Notes: generated from the letters alone by a model not told the origin. A stretch of 64,000 nucleotides of DNA from a virus (IMGVR_UViG_3300028886_000055:75731-139730), one strand, 5' to 3'. Shown: positions 19,472 through 41,846, numbered from the stretch's first letter. Numbers and translations are program-made.

Positions 19472-21650
19472 TTAATGATTTCCTTTGAACTAAAATTTTC
19501 TAGGAATTAATCTTCCACCTTTTCGATTAGATTGAATTAATCCGTAGCTCCCTATTATTGGAACTGATATACTTAATACTGAATTAATATATTTTTTAAC
19601 CGATTCTGGTGTATAATATCTTTCTAACTATTCCTAATTTAATGTTTTATAAGTTGGTTTTAAATTCTACATTAACTATGAAGTGTATCCTCTAGCGTAT
19701 AATTCCTGTTCATCTGTAGCATACTTAAAATGTCTATATTGTTCTAATAAATCATTAATTTCACTTGGAGAGTAATTATTCCATTTTAAATAATGTTTTA
19801 ATACGTTTTCAGAATCAAAATCACTAAATAATTTTCCTTTTTCATTTAGTTCTAATGTTGTATCAGCTATTGTTTTATTTTTTCTTGTAAACTATTTCAT
19901 TCTAGGAAACCATTTTCCAAATTTCGTTGATACAACATCGTTTGGATTCTATCTAATAGATAATGTTTTTCCATGTCCTCCAATTTCATGAATAATAGTT
20001 TCTAAAGCCTACTCCACATTTGCAATTCTATCTTTATTTAAGGATAGTTTTTGTCTTGCTTCAGCATTTGTTCCTTCACCAATAACTTTACCAGAACTAG
20101 ATCCTATATCTGTAAAACCGCTTTGTAAATCTCTAATATTAACATCAGCTTGAGTTCCTAAGATACGCATTAATTCATCCTAAAATTCATCATATTCTTT
20201 ATCTCCCCAATGCATTTCAGATTTAACTTGTTCAATTTTTTGAGGATTAGTAAAATAATCTTTTAAAACATCTATTTGAGAATCATAAGCCATTTGAGAT
20301 AATTCGTTATCTGTTCCAGGAAATGGAGTTGGAGTTATTTCTTTTCCAAACGAATCTTTTAAATAAGCTTCTCCCTATGAATGAGAATTAAGAGGTTTCT
20401 CACCTTTTATAAAACTATTTCCAGTAAACGTTTGTAAATTGCCATCTTTATCCGTATAGATTAATGTACCTGTAGTATTTCCACGTTGGAATCTAGGATC
20501 TCTAGATAAATGAGTTAATGCTGCTACTGTACCTCTAGTTGCAGGATAATCAGCACTAGATTCTGGGAATAATATTTCAGCACCTTCAGGAAGTTCATTA
20601 TATACTGATTCAAATAATGCAGTTTTTTCTTGAGGGTTTAGATTAGCTGGAATGTGATCACCATCCCAAGTTCGGATATGTAATTCATATTGCTTATTTC
20701 CATGAGGTACTAATACAATTTCTCTAGGTTTTTCTTGAGTATGTGAAGGTAAACGTAAACGTATTTTATCTCCTGATACTTTAGTTATTTGATATGGATT
20801 ATCAAATTTATGTAAAATGGATGGTGTATATAAAGACTGTTTGTCTACAGATTCATTTACAGCTTTAGCTAAATCTTTAGTAGTTGGATTAATTGGAATT
20901 CCTTTAAATGTATTATCTAAAGCTAGTTGATCTAAAGCTTCCTTAGTTAAAGTACGTCCTGCGTTTGCTACTTGTTTGCCAACAAGATCTCCAGTAACAT
21001 AAAAAGGTAAATCTCCAACCATCTAAATTCCAAAATCTCCCCATTGACTCTATGGAATACCTAAATAATGGGCAGCATTAACTGCATGTTCTCCTAGAGT
21101 TTTACCTGTTCCATACTTCATAGCTTGATTTAATGCTTCACCAAACGCAGTAGTTCCTATAATGTTACCACCTAACGTTCCTGGTGCTAAGAAAGGAGCT
21201 AACGTTGCTCCTCCGATACCCGCTAATGTTGCAGCTACAGGAGCGACAACAAACGTTCCAGCTCCAGGAGTTAATTGATTTGCTTTTCTATCAGCAGCTC
21301 GTAATCTCATCTATTGTCCTATTTTGTCATTAGCATCATATTGCTAAGTAAAATAGTTATTTAAATTTTTGGTAAATGGAGATAGGTTCTATTGATCATA
21401 AAAATAATCATAAGCGGTAGTTAAACCCTTATTTTTAAGAAAGTTATTAACGATATTAGATGGAAGTAAATACCCATCTTCTCCTGCTAAATAGTACTCT
21501 TCTCCCTATTTCTAAGCAGTACCTAATAGCCTATCGTCTGGTTTTATATCCGAGCGTGGTATATAATGCCAACCAGTTCCTTCAAAAATCTTTATCTGTA
21601 TATCTTTTATTTAAAGCTCCTGCTGGAGACTAATATTTTTTAATTCTCAT
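19472..21650 (-). CDS. KKYQ-family code-15 protein, about 725 aa, with a Gly/Ala hydrophobic segment and C-terminal zincin-like metallopeptidase; one +1 frameshift at 21584..21588
   Basis: MRIKKY[TAG]SPAG...; TIIHEIGGH...EQELYARG; C-terminal RKGGRLIPRKFQ; joins track ORFs 21050 and 20375. Confidence 0.75.
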
Positions 21651-21786
21651 ATTATTTTAAGCTTAAAATTTTTACATTTCCTATATTAATATATTATTAT
21701 ATAAATTTATATATATTATAGTATATAAACTACTGAATATAAAAGTATTGAAATATATAAAGCTGAGATATAGTTAAAGTCTAAAA

Positions 21787-21849
21787 AATACCCCCGTAGG
21801 TAAATATATAAAAATTGAAGTTCTGAAAATAGACCCCCCCGGGGGTATT
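21787..21849. repeat. GC-rich inverted repeat and palindrome at the strand switch
   Basis: AATACCCCCG (21787) / CGGGGGTATT (21840); CCCCCGGGGG palindrome at 21836..21845. Confidence 0.7.
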
Positions 21850-21985
21850 GATAGGAAAGCGATTTGCTAGATAATTGAAATTTTGGATATGTTGGGAGAG
21901 GGAGAGGAGTATCCCCTTTTACACCTCCTACCACTTTTTGATAGAAAGTAAATAATTTTATTAACAATTTTAAAATTTTACAACA

Positions 21986-22423
21986 ATGAAAAAATTTAGT
22001 GATTACAGTACCGAGCGTGCTAGCAACTTGTCTGGAACTTCTTATGTGGAAGTGAGCGACACAGTGACTATTGGTCAACTTGCTTTAGTGGGGACTACAA
22101 TCCTCAAAAGTGGGAAAATTGCAATGTACGCTCTCGTTGGCAAGGACTCTAGTGGCAATGATGCTGTCGCAAAACAGCAAAACTCGAAAGGGGATAACAT
22201 CAATCCCACGCCTCGAGCACTAGCAACCGTCAGTGAGAATGGCGACTTGTTGCGTGTGAGTTATCTTCGCTTGTTGGCAAACGCTGCAAAGGTTAAGATT
22301 ACTTTCAGCGCTGACAAGAAGTCGTACACGCTCGCCAAACCGATTGTTATCGACGAATTGCCCGTTTGGGATAGAGAAGCGGGCAAGTACACTGGCAAGT
22401 GTAACGCTACCGCTATCGACTAA
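21986..22423 (+). CDS. First plus-strand (early) gene, hypothetical, higher GC
   Basis: ORF track; followed by a terminator. Confidence 0.75.
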   Translation: MKKFSDYSTERASNLSGTSYVEVSDTVTIGQLALVGTTILKSGKIAMYALVGKDSSGNDAVAKQQNSKGDNINPTPRALATVSENGDLLRVSYLRLLANAAKVKITFSADKKSYTLAKPIVIDELPVWDREAGKYTGKCNATAID

Positions 22424-22454
22424 AAAAATTGGGGGTTTCCCCCAATTTTTTTTT
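22422..22454. terminator. Intrinsic terminator
   Basis: AAAAAAATTGGGGG ttt CCCCCAATTTTTTTTT. Confidence 0.85.
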
Positions 22455-22489
22455 GTTCGCTCGCTCGTTCTTAAATCGGTAAAAAGGTT

Positions 22490-22687
22490 ATGTCCAATAA
22501 TCTAATTACCGTAAAGATTACTCCTATCAGGAGTAACGTGTACAAAGTTGAGGGAATTGAGAATGAATTTTATGATATAAATTTGTTCTCAGACGGGATG
22601 ATCGGTAAGAAATTCTACGCTCTTATCCGTCCCAGATCTCCACTTGATGTTATCTATCGTCTTGTAAAATGTGAACAAGACAATTGA
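22490..22687 (+). CDS. Hypothetical early protein
   Basis: ORF track. Confidence 0.6.
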   Translation: MSNNLITVKITPIRSNVYKVEGIENEFYDINLFSDGMIGKKFYALIRPRSPLDVIYRLVKCEQDN

Positions 22688-23024
22688 ATAGCCCTGACAA
22701 CTAACCTACATTTTTCAAATTTTCGAGGGTTAGTTATGAATAAGAGAAAATTTTGTTTCCAAAGTCGGTACAGGGACTAAGGAGTAAAAACAGAAAGAAG
22801 TCCCAAGTGGATGAGCACTCTGTACGCTGTACGAACAATTAAAGATGTAGCACTGAAGTGAGTAAGTGTGATGAATTTGTATCGGTAAAACTATGGCAAC
22901 ATAGTAGATGTTATCCTTGCAGCAAGGACGTGATAAGGATAGAGAAGATCACTTATGCTCCAACTCTCTATCTACGTGATATGGAACATTGCTTCTACGA
23001 GAGCATCGTGTTAAGGAAGCTTTT

Positions 23025-23101
23025 GGTCCTATAGCTCAGTTGGTTAGAGCACCTGACTCATAATCAGGGAGTCCTTGGTTCAAGCCCAAGTAGGACCACC
23101 A
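23025..23101 (+). tRNA. tRNA with CAU anticodon, Ile2-like (or elongator Met), CCA encoded
   Basis: GGTCCTATAGCTCAGTTGGTTAGAGCACCTGACTCATAATCAGG...TAGGACCACCA. Confidence 0.9.
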
Positions 23102-24001
23102 CGTTATCTAATACAAGATGCTCGTAATACCATATTCCCAGGGGGAAGTGAGGTAACAAAGTTACGTGAGTATTTAGATAACTAACAGCGTATCTAGCGA
23201 GTGAGAAGGCTATGTATAGAGGCTTTTTGGTGATGCTAAACCATTTTTTTTACTAACTTTATAAGCCTGTAGGTGTATTGGTTAACCTTCATTTTATGTA
23301 TTTTTAATTAAAGGTTGGCCTCAACCTTGGCGGGAATTCAGATTCACTATATGGTGAATCTCCTTGCCTAAATTAAGTGGCATTTGTAAGATTGCAACAA
23401 CGGCATCGGTTGTTGGGAACTAAGCAAAGAGCGGATGTAGAATGTTAGTGGATAGACCTCACTAAAAGTGACTTAAACAACAATATCATTTGATATTGGA
23501 GGGAGAAAAGTATCTAGTTTTCCTGGGTTTCTAAATGGAAAGGATACTCCCTTGTTTAAGTTGCCGTACGCATTTGTCAGTAGCGTGTTTTTTGAATAAC
23601 TGTCATTTAAAAATTATGTGTATAGTAAGTCGAAACCCAGGTAGTAGAAGGTACTAAGAAGATTCCTAATCCTATTAACTTGATAGGTAGTTATGCTGTG
23701 TATGATCGCTCAATAACATCGGCGGTCTACTTTGAACTTTGAGTTTGTTGCAGCATCTCAGAGTTCAGCATAATTAGTCTGTGATCGCTGCAACGATTGT
23801 ATGACGAAGCGTTCCCACTAGGTGGAGAGAAGTCTCTGCGTCGCGACTAGTTGGGAAGTTGGACATGAGTGTTGGAGTCCAACAAGTGAATAAGACACTC
23901 CAAAGGGTGTTTGTAAAGAGACCTACAGTTCTGTGAAATACTAGTCAGAACATTTTTCTACATCTGAGCTTCCTTACATAGATGGAATACTGATGTAGAA
24001 A

Positions 24002-24063
24002 TCTTTAATGCAGCCATTCTTTGGAATGAGAGTCACAAGCCTCTATAAATTGCAGAGTGGAGA
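24002..24063 (+). ncRNA. Twister ribozyme (P1 type)
   Basis: UCUUUAAUGCAGC-CAUUCuuugGAAUG-AGAGUCACAAGCCUCU-AUAAAUUGCAGAGUGGAGA: UA cleavage dinucleotide, P2 UGCA/UGCA, P3, P4 and pseudoknot CAC/GUG as in twister consensus. Confidence 0.85.
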
Positions 24064-24670
24064 AAGAGATAAAAACAGGTCTGGCTACGAAAGGTTCGAC
24101 TCCTACTAGTGAATATCGTTATGTAAACATCTATAGTACCGTTTGCATAAAATAGCTCAAGGATATCCCTGGATTCGGAATCTATCTCTTTTCTTTTTAA
24201 ATAAAATTTTTAATAGTGCTGAAGCAAGAAAACAGTCAGCACGGTTTAAAAAACTCAATAACTTCCCAAGTCGTTGAGGGCACCAGTTTCTTGGTAATAT
24301 AGACAGTAAGCAAGTCGGTAGTGAGTTTAAAACGACAACTATTCCCAAACTACCATCACCCGCAGGGAGATTGCCGCAGATGGGTTTAAAGCGGAGATAC
24401 TGTTTACCAAGTTTTAGGTGTAAAACGCAAAAAGGTAGAAGGTACCTGTATGTTCCTAATCCTGTTAGTATAAGTTGTATTAGCAGGTATAAGTTCTGAA
24501 TATCTGACAGAACGGATTTGTGCAGAAATAGTCAAGAACGCACCATAAACATTACTTGACTAACCAACCTAAAGAAAATTAATTAGGTCGTAGTATTCTA
24601 CGTTTGGTTGGTTTTGGGAGTTTATAAACCCATGTAAAACCTATTTTTATTAATTTTTAGTTTAACTATC

Positions 24671-24880
24671 ATGACAAAGATCTTTAAAACAAAACAAGGT
24701 TCTATTCTCTACTATGATGGAGAAAGAAAGCTTCTTTATGTACAAACAAAAGAGGCTTTGAGTGACATCATGGCATCTCTTAATGAAGATGCTAAGAGTA
24801 TTAATCCTGTCGATAGAATGTGTGCACAAGATATTCTTGCCGACATTGAGAAGTTAGGCATAACGACACAAGTGTTTTAG
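24671..24880 (+). CDS. Hypothetical early protein ending in TAG used as stop
   Basis: ORF track; followed by structured intergenic sequence. Confidence 0.7.
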   Translation: MTKIFKTKQGSILYYDGERKLLYVQTKEALSDIMASLNEDAKSINPVDRMCAQDILADIEKLGITTQVF

Positions 24881-24996
24881 GAGTGTTCTCCTTGTGCCTA
24901 TTTATATACTCCGAGATTTTTGACCTTATGTTTTGGTATAAAAACAATAGGTGACACTGGAGAGACAGAATTTTCTATAACAAAAAGATTAAGATT

Positions 24997-25134
24997 ATGT
25001 CTGAATTTATTATTATTTCACTTATTTGTATTCTTATTTGTCATGTTATTGATAGAATTCACTTATGTCACATCGAGGACAAAATTGACGAACTCAAGGA
25101 AGAAATCAAAACATTTAAAAATAAAGAAAATTAA
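24997..25134 (+). CDS. Small membrane-anchored protein, 45 aa
   Basis: MSEFIIISLICILICHVIDR... Confidence 0.5.
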   Translation: MSEFIIISLICILICHVIDRIHLCHIEDKIDELKEEIKTFKNKEN

Positions 25135-25142
25135 GATTAAAT

Positions 25143-25589
25143 ATGACACCAAACATTAAGAAAACAGAAACGGGAGTATCTGTACAAATAGTACTCCCGT
25201 TTGTTGAAGGGAATAGTATTCCCAAGTTGAGAAAGACACCTAAATATCAGTGTCTCAAAGACAACAAAGAAGCGTTAATCAAGGCCGTTAAAACACGTAT
25301 GCAAGCGTGTTATGACGATCTTGTTGCAGGAATGGACAACATCGTGTATAATGATGGTATGACCATTCATTACAAAATTGAGGATAAATATTCTTATTTC
25401 AACCTTCCGAGTTGGGAGGTTATGGAGAAGCTTCTCAAAGCACTTGAGGAGGATGCTTATTATAACTGGGATATTCCCATGTATGAGCAACTTCTCAAGT
25501 CAGTTGTTCTGCATTCTGAGGCCACACTTTATAAGGATTATGACAAGATGGTTTGTTATTTAATTAACCATCTTGCGGTTCAAGGTTGA
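25143..25589 (+). CDS. Hypothetical early protein
   Basis: ORF track. Confidence 0.7.
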   Translation: MTPNIKKTETGVSVQIVLPFVEGNSIPKLRKTPKYQCLKDNKEALIKAVKTRMQACYDDLVAGMDNIVYNDGMTIHYKIEDKYSYFNLPSWEVMEKLLKALEEDAYYNWDIPMYEQLLKSVVLHSEATLYKDYDKMVCYLINHLAVQG

Positions 25590-25615
25590 AATCCCTGGCT
25601 CTTTAAGAGCCAAAA

Positions 25616-25672
25616 TCCCTGACAAGTCTAGACCTTCACGTGGGTCAGGGGTCGCATTAGCGCATACTAGAC
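25616..25672 (+). ncRNA. Candidate minimal HDV-like pseudoknot RNA
   Basis: P1 CCCUGA/UCAGGG; P2 GUCUAG/CUAGAC; L3 UUCACGU; P4 CGC-auua-GCG; J4/2 CAUA; lacks the canonical G1. Confidence 0.4.
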
Positions 25673-25897
25673 ATTGCTCTTTTATCTTTTCTATGCTGCG
25701 AAGAATAGTAACAGCCGCTTAAGTAAAAGGTTGAATTGCCAGATATAAATAACTGGAACCCATAAATAGAGAGATTCGTTCAACTTCAGAAACTTTGTTT
25801 TCATTTTTCTCTTCCATATTGATAAAGCACTTAACATTGAAAGAATCTCTCTATTTTCTCTTACCTTAAATAAATCCTGGGTAAGCAGGTGAACACT

Positions 25898-27760
25898 ATG
25901 CGTAAGTATAGCCATATCAACAAGAACCGCAAGAATGGTGTCAATCGCTCCTACCTTCGTATGAAGAAGGAACGTAAGACACGCTCCTTTTCTTTCGCTG
26001 GTGTCAAGCTAGACATCCAACTGAACAACCGTGGCGGCATCGTAGATGTACAGCCACGTATTGGCGATCTCTTTAACAGAATCTGTGGTCGTCAGTGGGG
26101 TCTTCTCGAAGTTAAGAACATTCTTCGAGACGAGTGTATAGATTTTGCTAACTCTAACAAGAACTAAACTATGGCACGAGTTAACTACGATAATTTTGAC
26201 TACAAGCAAGCAACTGCCAAATTCAATATGGTGCGTATGCACTATATTGGAAAGGCAGTACAGAAGGCAGAAATCAAACAAGCCATTCTTACTTCAGGTT
26301 TAGGATGGCATTCTATCCTATTAACGATCTTAATCAATCACAAATGTGTGATTAAAGAAGGTCGTGGTCGTGCTTGTAAGTTGTTCTTTACAAAAGAACC
26401 ACTCCACTTTACACAGCTCTACGATGCGCATAAAGCGTATTTAAGAGCAAGAAGAGAAAAGAAAACAGAGGTCAAACCCGTACAGAATGAAACTGAGAAA
26501 ATTCCTTATTGGACATCGACCACAACTTGGTAATGACCTCTTAAAGGTAATTGGAGGGCTTGCTTTTATAGTAAGCCTTCCAGTTACTATCGTTTTGCTA
26601 GCATCTCCTAATAAAATTTGGGAGATGATTATACCCTCTTTAATCATACTGGTAAGTTCTTTTATAATTTTAATAAAGAAATAACTATGAATTACTATAT
26701 TACTATTTTATCGTCTAACGACGATTACGATGAGATAGCAGATAAAATGCTAAAGTTGTTTGGTACGTTGCACATCTTTTTGCGCAACGATATCAAGACG
26801 ATTGAGATCAAGGACCATGAAGTTGATCAGCCTATTTACGATAAGCTGACCAAAATCATAAACGATCTGGATGCGACTGCATTCATGTTCAAAGCTGATC
26901 CTAACCAACTTGAGGAAATGTGTGCTTCCGAAGTTGAAACAATTCCGACTCTCAGTTGGTGATGGGGACGTTTATCTTTTGGCTTTGTGAACAGCCATCC
27001 TGGAGCATTCCTCTGATTCTTATCGGAGGAATTCTCCTTTTTATCTGCATCCTTACAGGTATTGCAGATTTAATTGAACATTATCAATTTAAAAACTTTG
27101 AAAAATGAAGTATCTTATCAAATTTAACAATGGTAATGACGAAATGCTCATCATTAGTGACGATGCATTTTACGGCTTTATTCGTATTGCCGTTCAGCAT
27201 AACAAGGACATCATGGATTTTCATGTGACATGCTATCCTGACGACACGATGATTTATCGTTGTGTTTACGCAGGAAAAGCACACTATTACACTTATGAGG
27301 ACTTTAAGAAATTCTTTAATCACGAGGGCGGACAGCATCGTGACCTCAGAATTACAATCGCATGAAGTGTAGAATTTGCGGATCAGAAATTGACCACGAA
27401 ATATATATTTGTGGTCAAGAAATGGTTGATCGTCAACTCTGTTTCACTTGTAATCACTGGCAAAATCAGCTTGAAGCTGATAAAGAGCGTGGTGATTACA
27501 AGTGGACAGTGATTGATGGAGGACATTACGTCATTGCACCAGAGAATGAAAAATCCAGATTCAGAGGTTTTGGTGGACAAAAATTTATCATTATCTTTGA
27601 AGATGGAACTATTGTTAGAACTACCAATCTTTGGTTCCAAGGACACATACCTCCTGAATGGAAATCGCAGTTTCCTGACAATGCTGTTTTTGCTGACAAT
27701 CGAAAATGGCAGAAAATTGGAGATTGTGAGTATCTTGCTCCGTCTATCTCGACGACATAG
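25898..27760 (+). CDS. Run of small hypothetical early genes (25898..26167, 26171..26533, 26687..26962, 27105..27365, 27362..27760)
   Basis: Co-oriented standard-code ORFs with AT-rich leaders. Confidence 0.65.
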
Positions 27761-28044
27761 AGAGGCTTTCGTAAGGTTGAAGTTACCATCCGTACAATGG
27801 TTAAACCTTACCTAGAAGCACAATAGGTATTGTGTGATGAGAGGGCACCTTCTTATCTGAAAGAAAATGGTGACGAGGCAGCTGATAATTTGCAATACGC
27901 AGCTGTGACATAGATCTGTTATAAGCCTCCAATCGTGAGCAGATTGTGCTACTTAACAATCTATAATGAGTGTAACTTGCAAAACTCTGTAAAAACTTCT
28001 GCAAGTAGGTTGCCGACATCCCTAAGAGACAATTGTCGGTACAA

Positions 28045-28115
28045 TGAGGTTTGGTGTAATGGCAGCACACAACATTTTGGATGTTGTAGTACAGGTCCGA
28101 ATCCTGTAATCTCAA
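28045..28115 (+). tRNA. tRNA-Gln(UUG)
   Basis: TGAGGTT/AATCTCA acceptor; CAACA-TTTTGGA-TGTTG anticodon arm. Confidence 0.85.
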
Positions 28116-28255
28116 CTCGTTTGTCATGATGTTTAAAGGTTAAACGGTAGCTGTGCCTGCTGAACTCTGTGAAGATAGTAAGCTAAAACAGCATTTATTA
28201 TTAAATATTAACTAATATTAATTACTATTAGATTTTTAATATAGATATTTTTTAT

Positions 28256-28263
28256 TACATTTG
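28256..28263 (+). promoter_or_regulatory. Bacteroidota-type -7 box TACATTTG directly before tRNA-Pro and the endonuclease
   Basis: TAnnTTTG consensus. Confidence 0.55.
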
Positions 28264-28267
28264 TAAT

Positions 28268-28341
28268 AGGGAAGGAGCCAGTAAGGATGGGCACTAGTTT
28301 TGGGAACTAGATGAAAGCAGGAGCGTTACCTGTCTTCCCTA
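28268..28341 (+). tRNA. tRNA-Pro(UGG) with atypical T loop
   Basis: AGGGAAG/CTTCCCT; CTAGT-TTTGGGA-ACTAG; T loop AGCGTTA. Confidence 0.75.
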
Positions 28342-32996: not shown

Positions 32997-33017
32997 TGTA
33001 TATAAATAATACATAAT

Positions 33018-33881
33018 ATGAGTAAGGAAAAATATACAAACGAAGAATTTATTCAAGCCGTTGCTAAAAATAAATCTTATGCAGGAGTAATGAAACAATT
33101 AGGTTTAAAACCTGCTGGAGGAAATTATGCAACTGTAAAGAAAAAGATCCAAGAGTTAAATTTAGATACATCACATTTTACAGGTAAAGGTTGGAATACT
33201 GGTTTAAAGTTTAAACCAAAAGTCGCAAAGCCTTTGTCTGAAATAATGGTGGAAAATAGTAATTATCAGTCTTATAAACTTTCTCAAAGATTAATAAAAG
33301 AGGGTTTAAAAGAGCATAAATGTGAGAATTGTGGGAGAACTGAATGGGAAGGATTTCCTATTGCATTAGAACTGCATCATATAAATGGTGTACATACTGA
33401 TAATAGATTTGAAAACCTACAAATGTTATGCCCTAATTGTCACGCTATGACTGATAATTATAGAGGTAAAAATATCAAATTGAGTGCACAGAAAGAAATT
33501 TCTGATGTAGAACCTTGTAAATTCAAGGAAACCTTAACAGATAATGCTGATGGCAATCTTGAGCCAAGCCAAAATGTTATTTTGGAAGGTGCAGAGACTA
33601 GACACAAGGAACCTAAACCTAAAAAGAAAAAGATTTTAGAGCCAAAATATTGTGCGTATTGTGGTATTGAACTAATAGGAAGTGCTAGAAAAAACAAATA
33701 TTGTTCATCAGAATGTGCACATAAAGCTAATGGAAGTAAAAGACCTGACGTTTTTACATTGTTAAATGATTTCAAAGAATTAAAATCGTTCGTACAAGTT
33801 GGTAAAAAATATGGTGTAACTGACAATTCTGTTAGAAAATGGTGTAAACTCTATGGAATTTTAGACAGGGTTAAGGAATAG
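33018..33881 (+). CDS. Intron-encoded HNH endonuclease
   Basis: CENCG...LELHHINGVHTDNRFENLQMLCPNCH; C-terminal Zn finger and HTH. Confidence 0.92.
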   Translation: MSKEKYTNEEFIQAVAKNKSYAGVMKQLGLKPAGGNYATVKKKIQELNLDTSHFTGKGWNTGLKFKPKVAKPLSEIMVENSNYQSYKLSQRLIKEGLKEHKCENCGRTEWEGFPIALELHHINGVHTDNRFENLQMLCPNCHAMTDNYRGKNIKLSAQKEISDVEPCKFKETLTDNADGNLEPSQNVILEGAETRHKEPKPKKKKILEPKYCAYCGIELIGSARKNKYCSSECAHKANGSKRPDVFTLLNDFKELKSFVQVGKKYGVTDNSVRKWCKLYGILDRVKE

Positions 33882-34294
33882 TCCAGCCTACAAACTTAAA
33901 AAGGTAGTGAAAACTATAGTAGGAAGAAAATCTACCGGTCTGAAAAGGCCTTGCTGGTTCGAGTCCAGTATCGAGCACTAATTAAACAAAAAATATAACA
34001 CTGAGGTGGACTTCAAACGCAAAACCTATTAAACTAGGCGTATGTGCGAAGTATTAGAGTTGGGAAGGATCGCTACCTTGGTAAGTGTTGTATTTTATAA
34101 TCCTTTTCAGCGTTTACGGTGTAACAGAGCGCTACGCTTGGTCTATAAGTACCTTGAACTTACAAAAACCGTTAACTGTCGTATTAGGTAGAGGAAGCCT
34201 AATATTCATAATTATTAGAGGTGGCTAATATAACCTTTTGCTCATATTGTTTGCTCAGTATCCACCTATACTGAGCTTTTTAAAATTAAGGATT

Positions 34295-35101
34295 ATGACA
34301 TCTGAGGAATTATTTGAGAAAGTGTCAGAACTTATAGATAAGACTTTTAAATATAAACCTATCAGTGAAAAAGAAGCTGTTGGTAAAACAATAGAGAAAA
34401 TCTATACACTTTATAATGGCTGGAGTGATAATTACAAAGTAATCACTTTTACTGATAAAACTGCTTTATATTATGAATGTGATAAAGATCCAGAAAGACA
34501 TCCTAAGTTAATAACATCATATGGTGACATAGAAAGCGGCATTAATGTTTATTTAAGTAGCCTTGGAAGTTCACTTTATGATGAAGGTCTTTTAAATGAT
34601 ACTACTGAACTTTTAAAAGCTGAAGAGCAATATAGATTAACATTTCTTGAAGAAAATAGACAAGAACAAATTAGAAAACTTAAAGAAATATTAAAGCAAT
34701 TAGAAAATAATTGAATTATGGAATCATTACTTAAATATCCTGCAGTTAAAGACTTTGAAGGTAAAGTCTTAGATAGAATTATCTTTCGAAAAATGCGTAT
34801 TGCGCAATTAACAATCCTCATATTTAAGGATAATACAGCTTGTTATATTATTGGACAAACAATTGCCAGTGATCCTATAATTGTAAACACTATACATTAT
34901 GATGATGGAGATGTTGATGTGATTTATACAGACTTAGGTTGTGAACTTTCAGACTTAGGTTTACTAAATATATCCGAAGTTGAAAAAGAAACATTAAGAC
35001 TTAAAAAAGAAGCTCTTGCTGAAAAAGCATCAATAATTGCCCAAATAAAAGAACTTGAAAAGAAAATAAATGAACTAAAGAGTAATTATAACATTGTTTA
35101 A
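34295..35101 (+). CDS. Two related hypothetical proteins (34295..34714, 34718..35101)
   Basis: Both have GK.(I/L)..I...I.F.D.TA...(S/T).LG..L.D.GLLN and a C-terminal coiled coil. Confidence 0.7.
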
Positions 35102-35154
35102 TTACTTTATAGGCTGCCTCGGTAGCATAATGGATAATGCAACGGGGTAATGTT

Positions 35155-35238
35155 GGAGGGATAGCGCGTAATTGGAAGCGCCTCAGTCTTCTAAACTGAT
35201 GCCAGTTGGCCTTGTGGGTTCGAGTCCCACTCCCTTCA
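35155..35238 (+). tRNA. tRNA-Arg(UCU) with extended variable arm, nested inside the split tRNA
   Basis: GGAGGGA/TCCCTTC-A; TCAGT-CTTCTAA-ACTGA; GTGGG-TTCGAGT-CCCAC. Confidence 0.8.
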
Positions 35239-35943
35239 CTAATAACTAAATAAAATTATTATGGAAAGTAAATGGTTTAATGAAAAAGAAAATCTAGAAT
35301 AGATGATTCTAGTAGATAAATTATCTTATGAAGAAATAGGAAGAAGATATAATTGTTCTGGAAGTAACATTAAGAAAGTTGCATCTAGAATTGGTATAGA
35401 ATTACCAAAAAGAAGAAAAATAAACGGTTCTGAACACTTTAATAAAGGAACTGGAAAACTTAATGTCTGTCTTAATTGTGGTAAAGAATTTAAATCGTAT
35501 TCTGGATTAAGTGGAAAATATTGTTGTTCAGAATGTGAAAAAGAATATAAACATAAACAAAAATATCAGCTCATATTAGATGGTGACCCTTCAATAATGA
35601 GAGCTAATTATTCTCCTAAAATTTTCAGACAAGACATAATTAATGAACAAAATGGAGTATGTGCAATATGTGGTATGAAACCAGAATGGAATGGTAAACC
35701 TTTAGTTTTCATTATTGATCACATTGATGGTCATGCTTCAAATAACAAACGAGACAACCTTAGATGTATTTGTCCAAATTGTGATTCGCAGTTAGATACT
35801 TATAAATCCAAAAATAAAAACGGAGAACGTAGTTATTATAGGTATCATAAAGAAGAATAAGCAATCGGTCGTGCGTGCAAGTCGTACCTGGGGTACTAAA
35901 ATTGATATGAGTTAACCTTATAGGTTACACTCCCTTCACTAAT
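35228..35943 (+). repeat. 16 bp direct repeat CACTCCCTTCACTAAT (35228..35243 and 35928..35943)
   Basis: Exact copy of the tRNA-Arg 3' end 700 bp downstream. Confidence 0.85.
35261..35860 (+). CDS. HNH endonuclease with N-terminal HTH; TAG at codon 14
   Basis: MESKWFNEKENLE[TAG]MILVDK...CAICG...IDHIDGHASNNKRDNLRCICPNCD. Confidence 0.88.
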
Positions 35944-36002
35944 GATTAATTCTTTTAATTATTTTATTTAAGATATAAATACTAATTTAAAAATAATGCA
36001 TT

Positions 36003-37070
36003 ATGAAAATTAAAAACAATACTAAAAATTTAATTCCACGTCATTAGACTGGTGGATTAGTTAGAAAATATCAACTTGCTGCTGGTTCACGAGGTATTGA
36101 ACGATATAAACCGACATTCACTGATCGAATTGTTTTAATGTCACGTAATACACCACAAAATAGAGCTGTTAATAGAGCAATATTTGCAGCTAAGGATAAT
36201 ACAGGACTTCCGATTAGTACATGGCCTAAATACTCATCGATTACGAACAAAACGATGTCTACATGGCCGGATGGTGAAACAACAATGTATATTAATAATA
36301 ATAAAGATAGTATAGGTCTTGATGGTACTATATATAATAATAGTGGAAAGGTTATAGGTAATGATGGTATTATTACAACTGCTTCTAAACCAGCTCAAAA
36401 CAAAGGAACTCAAGGTAAACCTGCAGGAACTAAAGGTAACAGTTCTAAAGGTGGTACTAGAGGTAGTAAAGGTAATGTAAGAACTACTGCTAAACCTGCT
36501 GCAACAACCACTACCACAACACCTACTGTAACACCAGCATCCACAGAAAACACAGGTAATTATACTATTCAACGTGGTGATACACTTGGAGCATTAGCAA
36601 AACGATTTGGAATGTCAGTAGATGAACTCGCTAGATTAAACAATATTAGTAATCCTAATCGTATTTATGCTGGTCGAACTTTAATTACTAAAGCTCCTAC
36701 TGTTGAAACTCCCGACATTAAAATTGAAACTCCTAGTGTTCCTAATTATGGATATGGAGTTACAGATAGTAATCTAAAACTAGGAACAAACTAGCAATAC
36801 TATCCTTCATATAACTAGGATGAATTATTAAGATCTGCATTTTCTAAATTTGGATTGAACTTTGATGATTATAAACAATTAACTGCTGATAAATTACCAA
36901 CAAATGTAGCGCCTGTTAGTCAGGAAGTTAAGACTTTTAATCCAGGTAATACTGTTTAGACTCCATCTTATAAAGCTTTAAGAGATGCACGCTTAGAAGA
37001 TGAAGCATTAAAAAGAAGTAAATTATTATCTTTTGCAAAACAAGGAACTAAATTAATTAGAAAAAAATGA
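36003..37070 (+). CDS. KKYQ-family LysM protein, 355 aa, code 15
   Basis: LIPRH[TAG]TGGLVRKYQ...; YTIQRGDTLGALAKRFGMSVDELARLNNISNPNRIYAG; C-terminal FAKQGTKLIRKK. Confidence 0.85.
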
Positions 37071-38171
37071 GTAAATTAGTACCTAAACATCAGAATACAT
37101 CTTCAATCTGGGGAAAGATATTCAGCAAAACAATATGTAACTCCAACAACTGGAATTTAGATAATTGATGATGCTGTTGAGAAGACCAAACAACAACAAA
37201 GTTTGAGAAGTCGTCAACGCAGAAGAGGAACAGCTTCTAAGATAGGTGCAGCTTCACCTGGTGCCCAGAAACAAGCTATCATGGAACGTCAACGTAAACT
37301 CAAAGAAGCGGGTTATTATACTGGCAAAATTGATGGTATTTGGGGCAAAAAGAGCAAAGCTGCATAGACTGCATATGATAAACGTAATTAGTCTTCAAGC
37401 TCTCTAACTGGTCCACAAGCTTATCGTAGAGCTGCAGGTCGACCTGAACCTAAGGAATTTGTAGTATCTGAAGTACCAAATCATCGAATATATCGAGTTT
37501 TTAAGGACGATACACGAGAAGTAGGTATCCCATTTAGTGATGATATGGAACTTGTTTATTAGTCTAATCAAAATGGAAGATATGGGGTTTTAGATAAACC
37601 ACAAGGTACACTCATCACTTTTGAGAACGGATCTCCTACTTTTACTAGTAAAGTTGGACGCGGTAAAAATAAAGGTGATGGAGTATATGACTATTCTAGT
37701 GATCCTAGAAACGCAAATACAAAAAGTACAAGCGATACAAACTATTACACTAAACAAAGTTCTACAACTCCTGCAGGTGTATTTACTATTATTCCCGTTG
37801 AAACTAGTGATTATTATGGTCATGAGCCTATGTTTAGATTAGCTACACCAAAATATAAATCAGCCGTAGCTTTTCATGCACCTCCTGGAGCAAAGGCTGT
37901 ATCAACTAGTAATTTTAATAAAGGTGATAATCCTTATGTCTCTACAGGATGTATTAGAGGAGAATGCGGTAACACGAGTTATGTTTATCGTAATAGGTTA
38001 TTATAGAAAGGAGATCCGTTTTATATTACTCCTGAAACGGAAGGAAATTATTTTACTAAAGACTGGAAAGGAAATATAAAACTTGTATTAGGCAATAATA
38101 ATGCAAAAACATATACTACTCGTCTAAAAGACGGATCAGAATGGATTGGAGATTTATTATATTTAAATTAA
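37067..38171 (+). CDS. KKYQ-family protein with peptidoglycan-binding and L,D-transpeptidase (YkuD-like) domains, code 15, +1 frameshift near 37110..37117
   Basis: MSKLVPKHQ; QRKLKEAGYYTGKIDGIWGKKSKAA; TPAGVF...AFHA...STGCIR. Confidence 0.75.
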
Positions 38172-38178
38172 TAGATAA

Positions 38179-38814
38179 ATGAAAATTTTAAAATTAACAA
38201 TTGTAATGGCATGTGTCTTTCTTTTGAGTTGCAATAAATCCAATGAAGTAGAAGTTATGCCCTGTTGTCCTACATGTTCAATTCTATTTCAACCATATGA
38301 TAGTGTCTCTTATCAAGAAGCACAACGCTTAGCCCAGACATTTGGATATCAATTATCTTCACTGCTAGGTAACATTAACGTGCGAGAAGTGAGTGTTTTA
38401 CCGATTAAGCTGTTGACTAACCAACAGCTCAATAGCACAAACACCCGATATCGCGCAGAGAAGATTTTGAAATATCAGAATGACATAGCTAAAGATGTGA
38501 TTAAAGATGAACATTTCGATGTGATTATTGGTTTAACGAGTAAAGACATTTCGACATCACTTCACAATATTGATGATTATGGAATCCAAGGTTTATCATA
38601 TATTGGTAAAAATAATTGTGTTGTGTCGACTTTTAGAATTAAGAATAAGAAGGATGTATGGAAACTTGTTGCTCATGAATTTTGTCATGGATATTTTTAC
38701 ACACAAATGCGACACTGTCCGGCCGATGATCCAACATGCATCATGCAGGATGGGCACGGCAAGCCAAACTGGACAAAGAGAACCAAAATTTGTGATAAAT
38801 GTTTAGGGATATAA
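38179..38814 (+). CDS. Lipoprotein Zn metalloprotease, archaemetzincin (M54)-like
   Basis: Lipobox LLSC; HEFCHG...HC....CIM...CDKC. Confidence 0.8.
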   Translation: MKILKLTIVMACVFLLSCNKSNEVEVMPCCPTCSILFQPYDSVSYQEAQRLAQTFGYQLSSLLGNINVREVSVLPIKLLTNQQLNSTNTRYRAEKILKYQNDIAKDVIKDEHFDVIIGLTSKDISTSLHNIDDYGIQGLSYIGKNNCVVSTFRIKNKKDVWKLVAHEFCHGYFYTQMRHCPADDPTCIMQDGHGKPNWTKRTKICDKCLGI

Positions 38815-39188
38815 TACACCCTAACTGACTTTATGTTATAACGTAAAATATTTTAAAGTAATCGTAAGATTAAACGTTATAAAAAAGCTCTTCTTTAAAG
38901 TCTAGAGCTAGGAAAGACTATTTTTTACGAGAAGCAATGAAATGCTAGTTCAATCTAAAGAACTAGCCACTCCTAGTTCTCAACTACTACCAATGTCCTC
39001 AAGATAGACAAAAAAAGTGGAAATATATCTATCTGAGGATTCTTTCAGATTTATTCATAATCTAAAGAATTTAATGTGTACAATCTTTTAAGCCTGTGTA
39101 CACAATCAGACTAGAAAAGCTTAATTCATGAACGTTTAATCTTACTTTTTTATTATATCTTATTAACCCACTTTAGGCTATAAAGTAT

Positions 39189-39196
39189 TACCTTTG
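39189..39196 (+). promoter_or_regulatory. -7 box TACCTTTG upstream of the KKYQ gene at 39273
   Basis: TAnnTTTG consensus. Confidence 0.55.
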
Positions 39197-39272
39197 CAAA
39201 GAAAAAATAATGGGAACAACAGATTCATACCGCAAAGGTAATACTTTTTTTTAATCTTAATACTCAAAAATT

Positions 39273-40796
39273 ATGCAAATCAAAAAATATCAAAACACAC
39301 CTGGGCCAATCAGTAGAGCAACTGACGAATATTACAACGGTACTGGCTGGCATTTTGTTCCAGGAAACTAGTTAAAGCAATCCGATCCAAACTACTCAGT
39401 TGTTCAAAGAAAAGGATTAGATAACAGTTACCTTGTTGATGCTAATGGTATATTAGTACCAGAGAGAGTCAGAAATGCTTATGAACAGAAAAGAGAAGAC
39501 ATTTTACGCATGGCTAAAGAATCTCAAGAAAACCAAGGAGAAATAACTCCGTTGACTGACGCTGAGGCTGAAGAACGTATGGGATTCTTTGCTAATCTTG
39601 GAGACGCTTTAGGTGTGACAAACGCACGTCACGATACAAATCGTTCCTTGGCAGCACGAATGGCAGATTAGATGCTTTGGAATTTAGATGGTCGTAATCC
39701 TAGAAGCAACGAAACGTATTTTGGAATTACAGCCCCATTACAAATGACAACACTTCCTGCAACTACTAATATTTACGGAATTGGTTCAATTTTAAGTGGT
39801 ATAGGTGGAGCAGAATTATTTAATTATTTCACTTATCCTTTTACTGGGAAAACTGTCGGTTAGTATTTAGGTGATTATATCCCAGTATTGACTAGTACAG
39901 CTGGTAATAACATAGCAACTTTTACAGGAGGCATAGGAGGATATAAATGGTACGATGGTGCAGTTAGAAGAGGTATTGAGACGGCGATGCGAACAACAAG
40001 TGCTCCAAGTCCAATAAATGAAGTTAAACGTGGATTTCATGATACTTTTCATCCAAATGATGGGAAATTTCAAATTACAAAACAAGGGGTTGATCGTATC
40101 AATTATATCTTAACTGGACATCGTTCAAAAAACCCTGGATATGACACGTGGTCAAATGACCCAGCAATAAATATTGAGAATGGAATAATCGAACCTTATC
40201 GTTTTACTGGATTAATAAGTAAAAATAATTTAGGTATAAATGCAAATTTTCATGCACAAAAAGGGTATGGTGATATAATTGATGCATATCTTTATGGAAA
40301 AGAACTTGATCCAAGAATTGCTACTAAAGTAGATCACGGTTATGGAATACACACAAAATACATATAGTCGAAGTATAAAGATAAACATGTTCCAGTATAT
40401 GAATTAAATGAAGAACCCTTAGTTGATGGTAAAAAAGGAATTAGTGCTGATATTGAAACACCACAAAATGTTAGTGGCGATTAGCGAAATATTTCTTTAA
40501 TTGCACCATCAGGACAAAATCATGCTGTTAATGTAGCAGGGCATTTGAAATTATCTACTCCGATAAATGGAGTAAGTCATATTGCAAGATAGGATATTTG
40601 GAAATTTGATCCAGATGCGTATACAACAAAATGGTTAAAAGATGGAAAGCATATATACACAACTAGTCAAAAGGATTATCCATTATTATAGAAAATTGGT
40701 CTAAATATTGTTAATGATATAGGAACTCCACTTATCTTAAAGACTAAATGGTATGAAAATCCGTTTAATGGAAATAGGTTTGGTTTAAGTATATAA
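39273..40796 (+). CDS. KKYQ-family code-15 protein, 507 aa, Gly-rich hydrophobic middle, uncharacterised C-terminal domain
   Basis: MQIKKYQNTPGPI...GTGWHFVP; seven TAGs join track ORFs 39672 and 39888; C-terminal AGH...QDIWKFDP...GTPLI. Confidence 0.8.
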
Positions 40797-40801
40797 GAAT
40801 T

Positions 40802-41167
40802 ATGAAAGCATTATTTTTAGGGATGGTTTTGACAGTTATCACAATACAAACGTATGAAGGCAACTTGTCTTTAAACATGTTTTTATTGGTATTATTTATT
40901 ATTGGAATTCTTTCTACATTTATGTTTAGACAGGAAGACGATACGCTGCAAAAAATTCAAGATTTCTGTTCGGAATACGATATTGCTGAATATAAAAATA
41001 TTGCCAAAGTAGAAGCATCTAAATTAAAATCGACTTACGAAGAAAAATTAACTTATAATAAATGTTTTCAGCATATTGGCAATCTCAATATTTATCGCAA
41101 TTTAGATGAATTTAATATTAGTATCTTAAAAGCCCACATCGCCAACTATTATTACAACTTAAAATAA
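40802..41167 (+). CDS. Two-TM membrane protein, no TAG
   Basis: ORF track; hydrophobic N-terminus. Confidence 0.7.
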   Translation: MKALFLGMVLTVITIQTYEGNLSLNMFLLVLFIIGILSTFMFRQEDDTLQKIQDFCSEYDIAEYKNIAKVEASKLKSTYEEKLTYNKCFQHIGNLNIYRNLDEFNISILKAHIANYYYNLK

Positions 41168-41174
41168 AACCAAT

Positions 41175-41846
41175 ATGCAAATCAAGAAATACCAAAGTCC
41201 CGACAGCGGGATTATCAGAATTTAGGACTTACCACAAGAGTATGTCACAAAAATACATAACAATAATTTCTTGCCAATAAGAATAAAAGATTATGTACGT
41301 AGATACATCTTTAGTAATCGAGATTTAGGTCGATATATTCCATATAAAGATTCATAGGGATGGCACCCTGATATTAATGGAAAAGGATTTGGAAAAGTCA
41401 TTGGAGTAGGTTCTGAACAGACGGTCTATGAAAATCTTGATAATCCTAATATGGTTCTCAAAATGCTAGATATCAGTTATCCAACAAAAACGGCATTGAG
41501 AGCAGGTGTAAAACAATACAACAAACGAAATTTAATTCCACTTCAAGAAAGAGCTAAATTCCTCGGATATGTAAAAGGCCCAAACAATGCAGGAACACAA
41601 GAAGCATATTATCCAATCTTTAGCTAGAAGAAACTAACAATACCGACAGATAAATCTTGGACTACCTGGGAAAGTGAGTATTTACCTCAGATTGAATATG
41701 CTATGAGAAATCTAGGAATTTCAGTAGGCAATGGTGTATATAATTACAGAGGATACAAAATTAGCGATTTGTCACCAGACAATATTGGATTTGATGAAAA
41801 TGGAAATTTGCGACTAATTGATGCCTATGTTGATAGAAACGGATGA
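41175..41846 (+). CDS. KKYQ-family protein kinase-like protein (polyvalent-protein kinase type), 223 aa, code 15
   Basis: MQIKKYQSPDSGI; IGVGSEQTVY...VLK...YPIFSQ...ISDLSPDNIG...LIDA; three TAGs; absent from the ORF track. Confidence 0.82.

What the first reader, a model, noticed from the sequence alone, without database searches (positions are those of the whole stretch)
19472..41846. Dispersed amber-gated 'KKYQ-tag' protein family with interchangeable effector domains
Seen: five TAG-containing genes that code-11 calling misses or fragments share a short basic-Gln leader. The leaders are MRIKKY[TAG]SPAG (21650, minus), LIPRH[TAG]TGGLVRKYQ (36003), MSKLVPKHQ (37067), MQIKKYQNTPG (39273) and MQIKKYQSPDSG (41175). 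Two end in a related tail (RKGGRLIPRKFQ; AKQGTKLIRKK). Genes 21650 and 39273 also share about 65 aa (TDxxxxGTGWH[YF]xP...YL...G.L.P) followed by Gly/Ala hydrophobic stretches. The payloads differ: zincin HEIGGH protease, LysM, PG-binding plus L,D-transpeptidase, an unknown D-x-W-K-F-D-P domain, and a kinase. Four of the five are recoded islands inside the standard-code early region. In two, the tag's conserved Gln is itself the amber codon. Inference: a polymorphic-effector system in which the tag routes late-made proteins into the capsid for delivery at the next infection, while amber codons block early expression.
Basis: partly seen in the sequence, partly recalled or inferred. Interest (0 to 1): 0.88.

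Follow-up and report, generated by a model that had tools for sequence, protein, structure and literature searches.

The report
Shared end-tag on phage cargo effectors
Five scattered late-code genes of this rumen crAss-like phage carry the short basic peptide that also heads the proteins in the phage's cargo gene block; the peptide joins many swappable enzyme domains in related phages and most likely marks proteins packed into the virus particle and injected, though no experiment shows this.

Summary
All five leaders are where stated. M[RQ]IKKYQ occurs three times in the window against 0.00 expected. In genes A (19472-21650, minus) and C (37067-38171), one extra base separates leader and body, so each needs a +1 shift. 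Homologues read both junctions uninterrupted.

The tag is a position-independent motif, roughly GG-K-L-I-[PK]-[KR]-[YFH]-Q-x-GG. It occurs at N-termini, C-termini and fusion junctions. Outside the window it heads three genes between the muzzle gene and the giant RNA-polymerase-block genes, where phicrAss001 has cargo proteins C1 and C2. TGA-recoding relatives keep it there.

Metagenomic homologues keep the tagged modules but swap payloads: ART-PolyVal, HD, lysozymes, PD-(D/E)XK, YkuD, an NleH/OspG-like kinase. Related phages differ in which tagged genes they carry. In the plus arm, only B-E have internal TAG codons.

Best reading (about 0.55): late-made virion cargo or ejection effectors, a crAss-lineage analogue of T4 capsid-targeting sequences and of polyvalent proteins. 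What the motif does is unknown. No paper found describes it.

The parts
21585..21650 (-). Gene A leader: MRIKKY(TAG)SPAGALNKRYTDKDF. The 0 frame then stops at TGA (21584-21582). The T5 run is at 21587-21583.
   Evidence: Homologues P0066, P0067 and P0070 read MRIKKYQSPAGALNKRYTDKDFEGTGWHY without a break.
19472..21583 (-). Gene A body (703 codons, +1 frame relative to the leader, 17 TAG). In order: GTGWH N-domain, Gly/Ala-rich hydrophobic stretch, GNAT-like domain, conserved HE(I/A/L)GGHG region, C-terminal hydrophobic segment, tail NRKGGRLIPRKFQFKGNH.
36003..37070 (+). Gene B (355 aa, 4 TAG). Two tandem motifs (NLIPRH(TAG)TGG and GGLVRKYQ), a Thr/Lys-rich linker, a LysM domain (187-228) and the tail AKQGTKLIRKK.
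   Evidence: (LysM, E 7.6e-16).
37067..37114 (+). Gene C leader MSKLVPKHQNTSSIWG. Its ATG overlaps B's TGA (ATGA). An extra A at 37115 breaks the frame.
   Evidence: Homologues read M-x-T-LIPKHQNTSPIWGRYSAKQYVTPTTGIQIIDD.
37116..38171 (+). Gene C body: RYSAKQYVTPTTGI(TAG)II..., a PG_binding_1-like stretch and a YkuD (L,D-transpeptidase fold) domain.
   Evidence: YkuD E 1.4e-6, 29.4 bits, above cut-off; PG_binding_1 E 7e-4, 20.1 bits against a cut-off of 23; P0055, 85% identical.
39273..40796 (+). Gene D (507 aa, 7 TAG): tag MQIKKYQNTPG, GTGWH N-domain, hydrophobic Gly-rich stretch, and a conserved C-terminal domain (about 225-500; invariant R233, H424, D441, K444, F445) of unknown fold.
41175..41846 (+). 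Gene E (223 aa, 3 TAG): tag MQIKKYQSPDSG plus a minimal protein-kinase-like domain (G-x-GSEQ-V, VLK, D-x-x-P-x-N, ID).
   Evidence: (profile against PDB: NleH2, NleH1 and OspG kinases, E 2e-4 to 5e-2).
18348..18422 (-). Amber suppressor tRNA (anticodon CUA), needed to read the TAG codons of all these genes.

Best explanation
The five genes encode late-made accessory cargo (ejection) proteins of a crAss-like phage. Each carries one or two copies of a short basic motif, roughly GG-K-L-I-[PK]-[KR]-[YFH]-Q-x-GG. At an N-terminus it reads M-x-I-K-K-Y-Q. At a C-terminus it reads ...KGGKLIPRK.

The same motif heads the small acidic protein, the C1-position protein and the C2-position protein in the cargo block next to the muzzle gene.

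Inferred mechanism:
1. The genes are translated only once the phage's suppressor tRNA(CUA) is active, because they contain in-frame TAG codons.
2. The motif lets the proteins join the cargo that is loaded into the procapsid and tail barrel. It may act by docking to a virion component or to other cargo.
3. On infection the proteins are extruded with the core cargo.
4. The cell-wall modules (LysM, PG_binding-like stretch plus YkuD) and the Gly-rich hydrophobic segments would act in the envelope.
5. The kinase-like, GNAT-like and HExxxH domains, and the ART, HD and nuclease domains found in relatives, would act inside the cell.

The motif also marks the joints at which domains are exchanged, which makes the repertoire polymorphic.

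Shown here: the motif, its positions, its presence in the cargo block, late-code usage and payload swapping. Inferred: virion location, the routing role of the motif and expression timing.
For: 1. The tag is far beyond chance and is conserved as a peptide.
2. The genome has the order muzzle (PF25731, 106 bits), 526-aa gene, DUF192 gene, GIY-YIG-like gene (by its YIG(Q)T start; not run against Pfam), 94-aa MRIKRF(Q)EGG, 1711-aa MAQVIRKY(Q)EGG, 625-aa MRIKKLAGGG, then the giant RNAP-block genes. This matches muzzle-C1-C2-RNAP in phicrAss001 (PMC10172136).
3. TGA-recoding relatives G001, G002 and G004 keep the tags on the same three genes.
4. The C1 cargo of phicrAss001, detected by MS in virions, ends ...KAKGGKVRTKKKK. 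The gene in the same position in phicrAss002 (gp30) ends ...CGGKKKIA.
5. TAG density is 15 per 1000 codons in the five genes, 21 in the late arm and 1.7 in the plus arm. Only B-E have internal TAG in the plus arm.
6. Homologues share the tagged modules but carry ART-PolyVal, HD, Phage_lysozyme2, Phage_lysozyme or PDDEXK_1 domains. Others carry a different C-domain in place of YkuD or kinase domains on 200-1049 aa proteins. This domain spectrum is the one described for injected polyvalent proteins, including an HEXXXH peptidase variant (PMC5512222).
7. Of 201 homologues, 51 have GG[KRNST][LIVMF] in their last 18 residues, a 25-fold enrichment. Internal copies sit at fusion junctions.
8. The locus content differs among close relatives.
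9. A separate Amidase_3 endolysin with small membrane proteins exists, so B and C are not needed for lysis.
Against: - No virion proteomics exists for this phage or any tagged relative.
- The 1711-, 625- and 94-aa proteins match no cargo family by sequence. gp45 against the 1711-aa protein gives only E 0.3, so the 'cargo block' assignment is positional.
- phi14:2 cargo proteins, verified by MS, have no tag or tail. phicrAss001 gp46 has no tag. The motif is therefore lineage-specific and not required for cargo loading in general.
- About 60% of the homologues retrieved lack an N-tag.
- Two of the five genes are frame-broken right after the tag.
- LysM, PG-binding and lysozyme payloads also fit a lysis or envelope role.
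Confidence: 0.55

Rival explanations
1. The motif is a conserved joint between protein modules: an inter-domain linker, a recombination or fission-fusion boundary, or a processing site of polyproteins. It is kept by descent and by its role in domain shuffling or cleavage, not as an address label. Proteins begin or end with it only because genes split there.
For: - The same motif is internal exactly at fusion points. P0097 and P0099 read lysozyme-KSGGKLIKRGQQG-module, and that module starts MGKLIKRGQSG in P0091. P0106 reads NRKGGKLIPRKFQFGG followed by an extra domain, where A ends. P0015 reads ...SSGGILKFQ-PISRATDEYYNGTGWH.
- Neighbouring genes pair a tail with a tag. B ends ...GTKLIRKK and C starts MSKLVPKHQ. 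The 94-aa gene ends ...GAKLVRVR and the 1711-aa gene starts MAQVIRKYQ.
- The motif is often flanked by GG on both sides.
- A family member carries an HExxxH peptidase-like motif that could do the cutting (PMC5512222).
Against: - A pure linker would not need this degree of sequence conservation across unrelated proteins and across TAG- and TGA-recoding lineages.
- Half-motifs at free termini are conserved on their own.
- DNA identity at the joints is low, so it is not a recombination sequence.
- This reading does not conflict with cargo status and may be part of the same story, as with the T4 CTS, which is both a targeting signal and a cleavage site.
Confidence: 0.2
2. The tagged proteins are late envelope or lysis-associated proteins that act from within the infected cell, as peptidoglycan binders or remodellers and membrane proteins. 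The basic motif would be a membrane, peptidoglycan or holin-related targeting or regulatory element.
For: - Payloads include LysM, a PG_binding_1-like stretch plus YkuD, and lysozyme domains in homologues.
- PHROG hits are to 'endolysin' families through the binding domains.
- A and D have Gly/Ala-rich hydrophobic stretches.
- The genes use the late code.
Against: - Kinase-like, GNAT-like, ART, HD and PD-(D/E)XK payloads act on cytoplasmic targets.
- The tag heads the C1/C2-position genes beside the virion RNAP block.
- A canonical Amidase_3 endolysin with two small membrane proteins is encoded elsewhere.
- None of the five has a signal peptide.
Confidence: 0.12
3. The shared start is a translation-initiation feature: an A-rich, unstructured 5' coding region that suits Bacteroidota-type initiation. 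It would have no function as a peptide.
For: The tags are encoded by A-rich codons directly after ATG. Bacteroidota rely little on Shine-Dalgarno pairing (general knowledge).
Against: - The motif also occurs at C-termini and internally.
- Tyr/Phe-Gln and the flanking Gly residues are conserved.
- Synonymous codons vary.
- About 65 other plus-arm genes lack it.
Confidence: 0.03

Closest known systems
T4 capsid targeting sequence (CTS) on internal proteins IPI, IPII, IPIII and Alt, and the hypervariable internal-protein locus of T4-like phages (own knowledge: Mullaney and Black 1996; Comeau and Krisch 2005)
   Same: A roughly 10-residue N-terminal peptide is shared by otherwise unrelated proteins that are packed in the head and injected. 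The gene set is polymorphic between related phages. An ADP-ribosyltransferase is among the payloads.
   Different: - The sequence is unrelated, and the phage lineage is different (a podovirus-like crassvirus with tail and capsid cargo zones).
- The motif here also occurs at C-termini and at internal junctions.
- No prohead protease or cleavage is known.
- Packaging has not been shown.
- The genes are scattered and gated by a code switch.
Polyvalent proteins of phages and conjugative elements (Iyer et al. 2017, PMC5512222)
   Same: The domain repertoire matches: ART-PolyVal, HD, lysozymes, PD-(D/E)XK, GNAT, an HEXXXH zincin-like peptidase variant, and kinases. Both are predicted to be packaged and injected, and both show rampant domain shuffling.
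   Different: Here most members are one- or two-payload proteins rather than giant multi-domain chains. They are joined or terminated by a specific short motif that the parts of that paper read here do not mention (term look-up).
phicrAss001 cargo proteins C1 (gp45) and C2 (gp46) (Bayfield et al. 2023, PMC10172136)
   Same: - Gene position matches: directly after the muzzle gene and before the RNAP-block genes.
- Both have a basic N-terminus, a Gly-rich hydrophobic segment and a basic ...KGGK... C-terminal tail (gp45).
- The concept is the same: cargo stored in capsid and tail and extruded first.
   Different: - There is no significant sequence similarity (no Pfam or PHROG family matched; BLASTP E 0.3).
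- gp46 has no tag.
- phicrAss001 is not known to have a dispersed family of tagged effectors.
Stop-codon recoding as a late-gene switch in gut phages (bioRxiv 10.1101/2021.08.26.457843; PMC7886860; PMC10136315)
   Same: TAG is read as Gln in late genes. The phage encodes a suppressor tRNA. The early arm uses the standard code.
   Different: Here single recoded genes sit as islands inside the standard-code arm, and in this window they coincide one-to-one with the tagged genes.

Membership tests
T4-type capsid-targeting-sequence cargo | A short N-terminal peptide shared by unrelated proteins of one phage | tested here: met
T4-type capsid-targeting-sequence cargo | The proteins are present in the virion and the peptide is necessary and sufficient for packaging | not testable with these tools
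   No proteomics or genetics is available. Only the position of three tagged genes in the cargo block speaks to this.
T4-type capsid-targeting-sequence cargo | The peptide is removed by the prohead protease at a defined site | not tested
   No protease was searched for. GG flanks are only suggestive.
Polyvalent proteins (Iyer 2017) | Conflict-type enzymatic domains (ART-PolyVal, MPTase, HD, nucleases, lysozymes) combined variably in phage proteins | tested here: met
   ART-PolyVal in 3 members, HD in 4, Phage_lysozyme2 in 4, Phage_lysozyme in 1, PDDEXK_1 in 1, all among A's homologues. GNAT-like fold, Z 5-7.4.
Polyvalent proteins (Iyer 2017) | Zincin-like MPTase fold around the HEXXH or HEXXXH motif | tested here: inconclusive
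   HE(I/A/L)GGHG is conserved in divergent homologues. The AF2 model of that region has pLDDT 30-45. There is no Pfam hit.
   Pfam-A scans of A, D and the 1711-, 625-, 526- and 94-aa proteins returned no cargo family. I did not confirm that PF25725 is in this Pfam copy. gp45 residues 413-548 against the 1711-aa protein residues 1557-1692 give only E 0.3.
Crassvirus cargo protein 1 (phicrAss001 gp45) | Gene lies directly downstream of the muzzle gene and upstream of the virion RNAP genes | tested here: met
   The same order holds in G001 and G004.
LysM (PF01476) | Pfam score above the gathering cut-off | tested here: met
   Gene B scores 58.2 bits against a cut-off of 20.9.
YkuD L,D-transpeptidase (PF03734) | Pfam score above the gathering cut-off | tested here: met
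   Gene C scores 29.4 bits against a cut-off of 23.4. Catalytic residues were not checked.
NleH/OspG-type minimal protein kinases | Kinase signature motifs (Gly-rich loop, VxK Lys, D-x-x-x-x-N catalytic loop, metal-binding Asp) and profile similarity | tested here: inconclusive
   The motifs are present and K96, D198 and N203 are conserved. Profile against PDB gives E 1.8e-4 to 5e-4, but over the N-lobe only. No fold model was made.
prfB-type programmed +1 frameshift | A slippery P-site codon that re-pairs in the +1 frame, followed by an in-frame stop, and conserved in relatives | tested here: not met
   A has UUU-UGA, but its homologues have no shift. C's site, GGA-AAG-A, is not slippery and has no stop, and its homologues are unshifted.

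The most novel reading that the evidence does not exclude
N-tag and C-tail are two halves of one GG-flanked 'cargo connector' used by a large clade of crAss-like phages, including both TAG- and TGA-recoding lineages. It would load a freely exchangeable effector repertoire into the tail and capsid cargo zones. It might act by docking at the muzzle or portal, by head-to-tail chaining of cargo, or as a GG-specific processing site. Code-switch gating would then let such late cargo genes sit anywhere in the genome. The single-base frame breaks right after the tag in A and C would be a further on/off layer or natural tag-uncoupling variants.
Probability: 0.25. Interest if true: 0.8.

Novelty: new variant of a known kind. 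Interest (0 to 1): 0.62.

Why it matters
Crass-like phages are among the most abundant viruses of gut ecosystems. How they choose what to pack and inject besides DNA is unknown.

A short, portable motif that marks cargo would help in three ways:
- It would allow a sequence-based census of injected effectors across uncultured phages.
- It would point to the protein-protein contact that loads cargo.
- It would offer a handle for packaging foreign proteins.

The payload list (cell-wall binders, a minimal kinase, GNAT, ART, HD, nucleases) is a catalogue of candidate host-takeover and anti-defence tools. The one-to-one match between tag and amber recoding in this window's early arm is a clean natural test of the idea that stop-codon recoding times protein production.

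Tried and rejected
The two frame breaks could not be checked against reads.
- **Scans with no result:**
  - Two metagenome pattern scans for junction variants.
  - A blastn of D-E against phage records.
  - Single-protein scans of IMG/VR for D and for the 625-aa protein.
  - A tblastn of the 625-aa protein against phage records gave only two unannotated genomes.
- **D's C-terminal domain** has no fold match (Foldseek best E 0.6; VIA-align wide Z 3.5 or less). This does not show that the fold is new.
- **A's HExxxH region** could not be modelled.
- **Amber at the tag's Gln** as a special design was rejected. The rate of 4 in 8 equals background TAG usage.
- **Other 'recoded' plus-arm ORFs** (27362, 28287, 44887, 50656) were rejected. 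Their TAGs precede a downstream ATG, overlap tRNA-Gln, or are true stops.
- **The downstream genes** 38179-38814 and 40802-41167 were considered as immunity partners and not supported. The first is a lipoprotein zincin. No such gene follows D's homologues.
- **Complex prediction** was not used. The muzzle and other partners need TAG or TGA read-through, and no specific binding claim is made.
- **Our earlier findings** by sequence look-up returned nothing.

Full report
**Setting.** The window is the last 64 kb of a 139,730-bp single-contig phage genome with 31% G+C. Runs that hold the stretch are labelled bovine gut metagenome.
- A minus-strand arm (genome 11.3-97 kb) is full of in-frame TAG codons: 21 per 1000 codons, 45% of all Gln codons.
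- The plus-strand arm almost lacks TAG, at 1.7 per 1000 codons.
- A tRNA with anticodon CUA lies at window 18348-18422 on the minus strand.
- The 1589-aa late protein is a crassvirus muzzle protein (PF25731, 106 bits).
- An Amidase_3 endolysin with two small membrane proteins sits elsewhere in the late arm.

**Observation.** Reading TAG as Gln restores five genes that code 11 fragments.
- The start M[RQ]IKKYQ occurs three times in the window, against 0.00 expected from shuffles.
- It occurs once more outside the window as MRIKRF(Q).
- The copies differ at synonymous sites.
- [KR][KRH][YFH]Q is almost confined to protein ends, with 6 of 7 copies terminal.

**Two leaders are out of frame.**
- *Gene A.* The leader MRIKKY(Q)SPAGALNKRYTDKDF runs into TGA at GAT TTT TGA. 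The body EGTGWHY... follows in the +1 frame.
- *Gene C.* The leader MSKLVPKHQNTSSIWG is followed by an extra A at 37115, before RYSAKQYVTPTTGI(Q)II....
- Homologues from other assemblies read ...KDFEGTGWHY... and ...IWGRYSAKQ... without interruption. The leaders are therefore genuine, and this genome carries one added base at each junction.
- More than 12,000 codons of giant late ORFs in the same contig are unbroken, so two random assembly errors at exactly these places are unlikely.
- A's site (UUU UGA) resembles the prfB shift site; C's does not.

**What the tag is.** It is not only an N-terminal leader.
- The same residues occur at C-termini. A ends NRKGGRLIPRKFQFKGNH, B ends AKQGTKLIRKK, and the 94-aa protein ends RRGAKLVRVR.
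- B carries two in tandem: NLIPRH(Q)TGG and GGLVRKYQ.
- Among 201 homologues retrieved:
  - The core motif is N-terminal in 21 by a strict pattern. About 42 of the first 103 homologues carry a tag by eye.
  - 51 have GG[KRNST][LIVMF] in their last 18 residues, a 25-fold enrichment over the rest of the sequences.
  - The clear internal copies lie at fusion points.
- Examples of internal copies:
  - P0097 and P0099 read lysozyme-KSGGKLIKRGQQG-module, and the same module starts MGKLIKRGQSG in P0091.
  - P0106 continues past NRKGGKLIPRKFQFGG, where A ends.
  - P0015 reads ...SSGGILKFQ-PISRATDEYYNGTGWH.
- Tag and tail are therefore parts of one motif, roughly GG-K-L-I-[PK]-[KR]-[YFH]-Q-x-GG.

**Link to cargo.** Outside the window the late arm has this gene order:
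1. muzzle
2. a 526-aa gene
3. a DUF192 gene
4. a GIY-YIG-like gene (judged from its YIG(Q)T start; not run against Pfam)
5. a 94-aa gene starting MRIKRF(Q)EGG, with an acidic middle and a basic tail
6. a 1711-aa gene starting MAQVIRKY(Q)EGG
7. a 625-aa gene starting MRIKKLAGGG
8. the giant genes of 3073, 3500, 846 and 1532 aa

phicrAss001 has muzzle gp44, cargo C1 gp45, cargo C2 gp46 and then RNAP-associated gp47. All of its cargo proteins were detected in virions (PMC10172136).

A scan of IMG/VR for the tag's DNA pattern recovered large crass-like contigs.
- In them, MKIKKYQ heads the C2-like protein and a roughly 105-aa acidic protein.
- MAQVIKKFQSGG heads the C1-like protein.
- These relatives recode TGA, not TAG, so the tags predate or cross the code change.

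The comparison with cultured phages is mixed.
- gp45 of phicrAss001 and gp30 of phicrAss002 end in ...KAKGGKVRTKKKK... and ...CGGKKKIA.
- phi14:2 cargo proteins and gp46 have no tag.
- No sequence family links my tagged block proteins to gp45 or gp46.
- The cargo assignment is therefore positional and the motif is lineage-specific.

**Payloads.**

| Gene | Payload | Evidence |
|---|---|---|
| B | LysM | |
| C | PG_binding_1-like stretch (just under Pfam's cut-off) plus YkuD | |
| E | Minimal kinase-like domain; nearest solved relatives by profile are NleH1, NleH2 and OspG (E 2e-4 to 5e-2). In 98 representative homologues it is the C-terminal payload of 200-1049 aa proteins, many with N-tags and ...YKKGGKL tails | |
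| D | Conserved C-terminal domain that models well (pLDDT about 85) but matches no solved fold | |
| A | Best-modelled part is a GNAT-like domain (VIA-align Z 5-7.4, all top 50 hits GNAT). Its HE(I/A/L)GGHG motif is conserved but unmodelled | |

An HEXXXH variant of the polyvalent-protein metallopeptidase is described in PMC5512222.

**Polymorphism.**
- D's homologues P0005, P0006, P0012 and P0013 keep a 68-97% identical N-terminal 75-100 residues with unrelated C-terminal parts.
- C's homologues P0058, P0060 and P0062 keep the tag and PG-binding stretch but replace YkuD.
- A's homologues carry ART-PolyVal, HD, two lysozyme families or PD-(D/E)XK domains.
- In TAG-recoding relatives (L152-L164), an array of TAG-rich tagged genes next to the D homologue differs in content between otherwise syntenic genomes.

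**Code link.** In the plus arm only B, C, D and E have internal TAG codons. None of the roughly 65 standard-code plus-arm genes has the tag. TAG at the tag's own Gln (4 of 8 motifs genome-wide) is what codon usage predicts.

**Interpretation.** The best reading is a lineage-specific equivalent of T4's capsid-targeting system combined with the polyvalent-protein repertoire. These would be late-made, virion-loaded, injected effectors whose modules are joined and terminated by one short motif.

Virion location, the routing role of the motif and the timing are inferred, not shown. The main rival is that the motif is a module joint or processing site, which could be part of the same mechanism. A lysis or envelope role is weaker. 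It does not explain the cytoplasm-directed payloads or the cargo-block tags, and the phage has a separate endolysin cassette.

Bayfield et al. report an unassigned 14-residue helical cargo segment bound at the muzzle ring-joining domain, thought to be an N-terminal piece of gp45. This gives a concrete docking site to test.

**Novelty.** Four literature searches, on cargo, polyvalent proteins, virion proteomics and recoding, turned up no paper that describes this motif. Earlier notes of this scan describe similar shared start tags in other crass-like genomes. Those notes are unchecked AI notes and are not independent support.

Noticed in passing
L128-L145 (IMG/VR relatives G004 and G001), e.g. 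G004:C1:111551-115840: These crass-like relatives recode TGA, not TAG, in late genes: the C1-like gene has 15 in-frame TGA and no TAA or TAG. They keep the same N-tags on the small acidic, C1-like and C2-like genes.
   Followed up: partly
window 38179-38814 (+): A standard-code gene 8 nt after C. It has a lipoprotein signal (..LLSC) and an HEFCHG...HC...C.IM...C..C pattern, which is archaemetzincin-like. Pfam gives only a weak SprT-like hit (E 0.009).
   Followed up: partly
window 40802-41167 (+): A standard-code 121-aa gene 6 nt after D, with two hydrophobic segments. No family was found.
   Followed up: partly
window 19472-21310 (-), residues 170-305 of the 612-aa ORF: A roughly 130-residue GNAT-like domain (LPSHT...RTWDG...LYNELPEGAEILFP...RDPRF) is the most widely shared module among A's homologues. 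One of them is a JGI protein named as an exonuclease V beta subunit. It has no Pfam family.
   Followed up: partly
window 27362-28129 (+) and 28045-28116 (+): The TAG read-through ORF at 27362 runs across a tRNA-Gln(UUG) gene, so the TAG at 27761 is the real stop. This is an example of TAG acting as a stop in the plus arm.
   Followed up: yes
window about 39188-39255 (+), just upstream of D: A long inverted repeat (ggtattacctttgc ... gcaaaggtaatac) is followed by a T-run. It looks like a terminator, so D may have its own transcription unit.
   Followed up: no
genome 54114-55248, 59456-61097 and 79524-82041 (the last pair is window 3794-6311, the first two lie outside the window): Pairs of same-strand late ORFs overlap by 58-112 nt in different frames. 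These may be further frame breaks or programmed shifts.
   Followed up: no
genome 40091-45226 (-), residues 1557-1692: There is weak similarity (E 0.3, 23% over 144 aa) to the portal-binding domain of phicrAss001 gp45 (residues 413-548). The 526-aa gene next to the muzzle weakly resembles gp45's Gly-rich N-part.
   Followed up: partly
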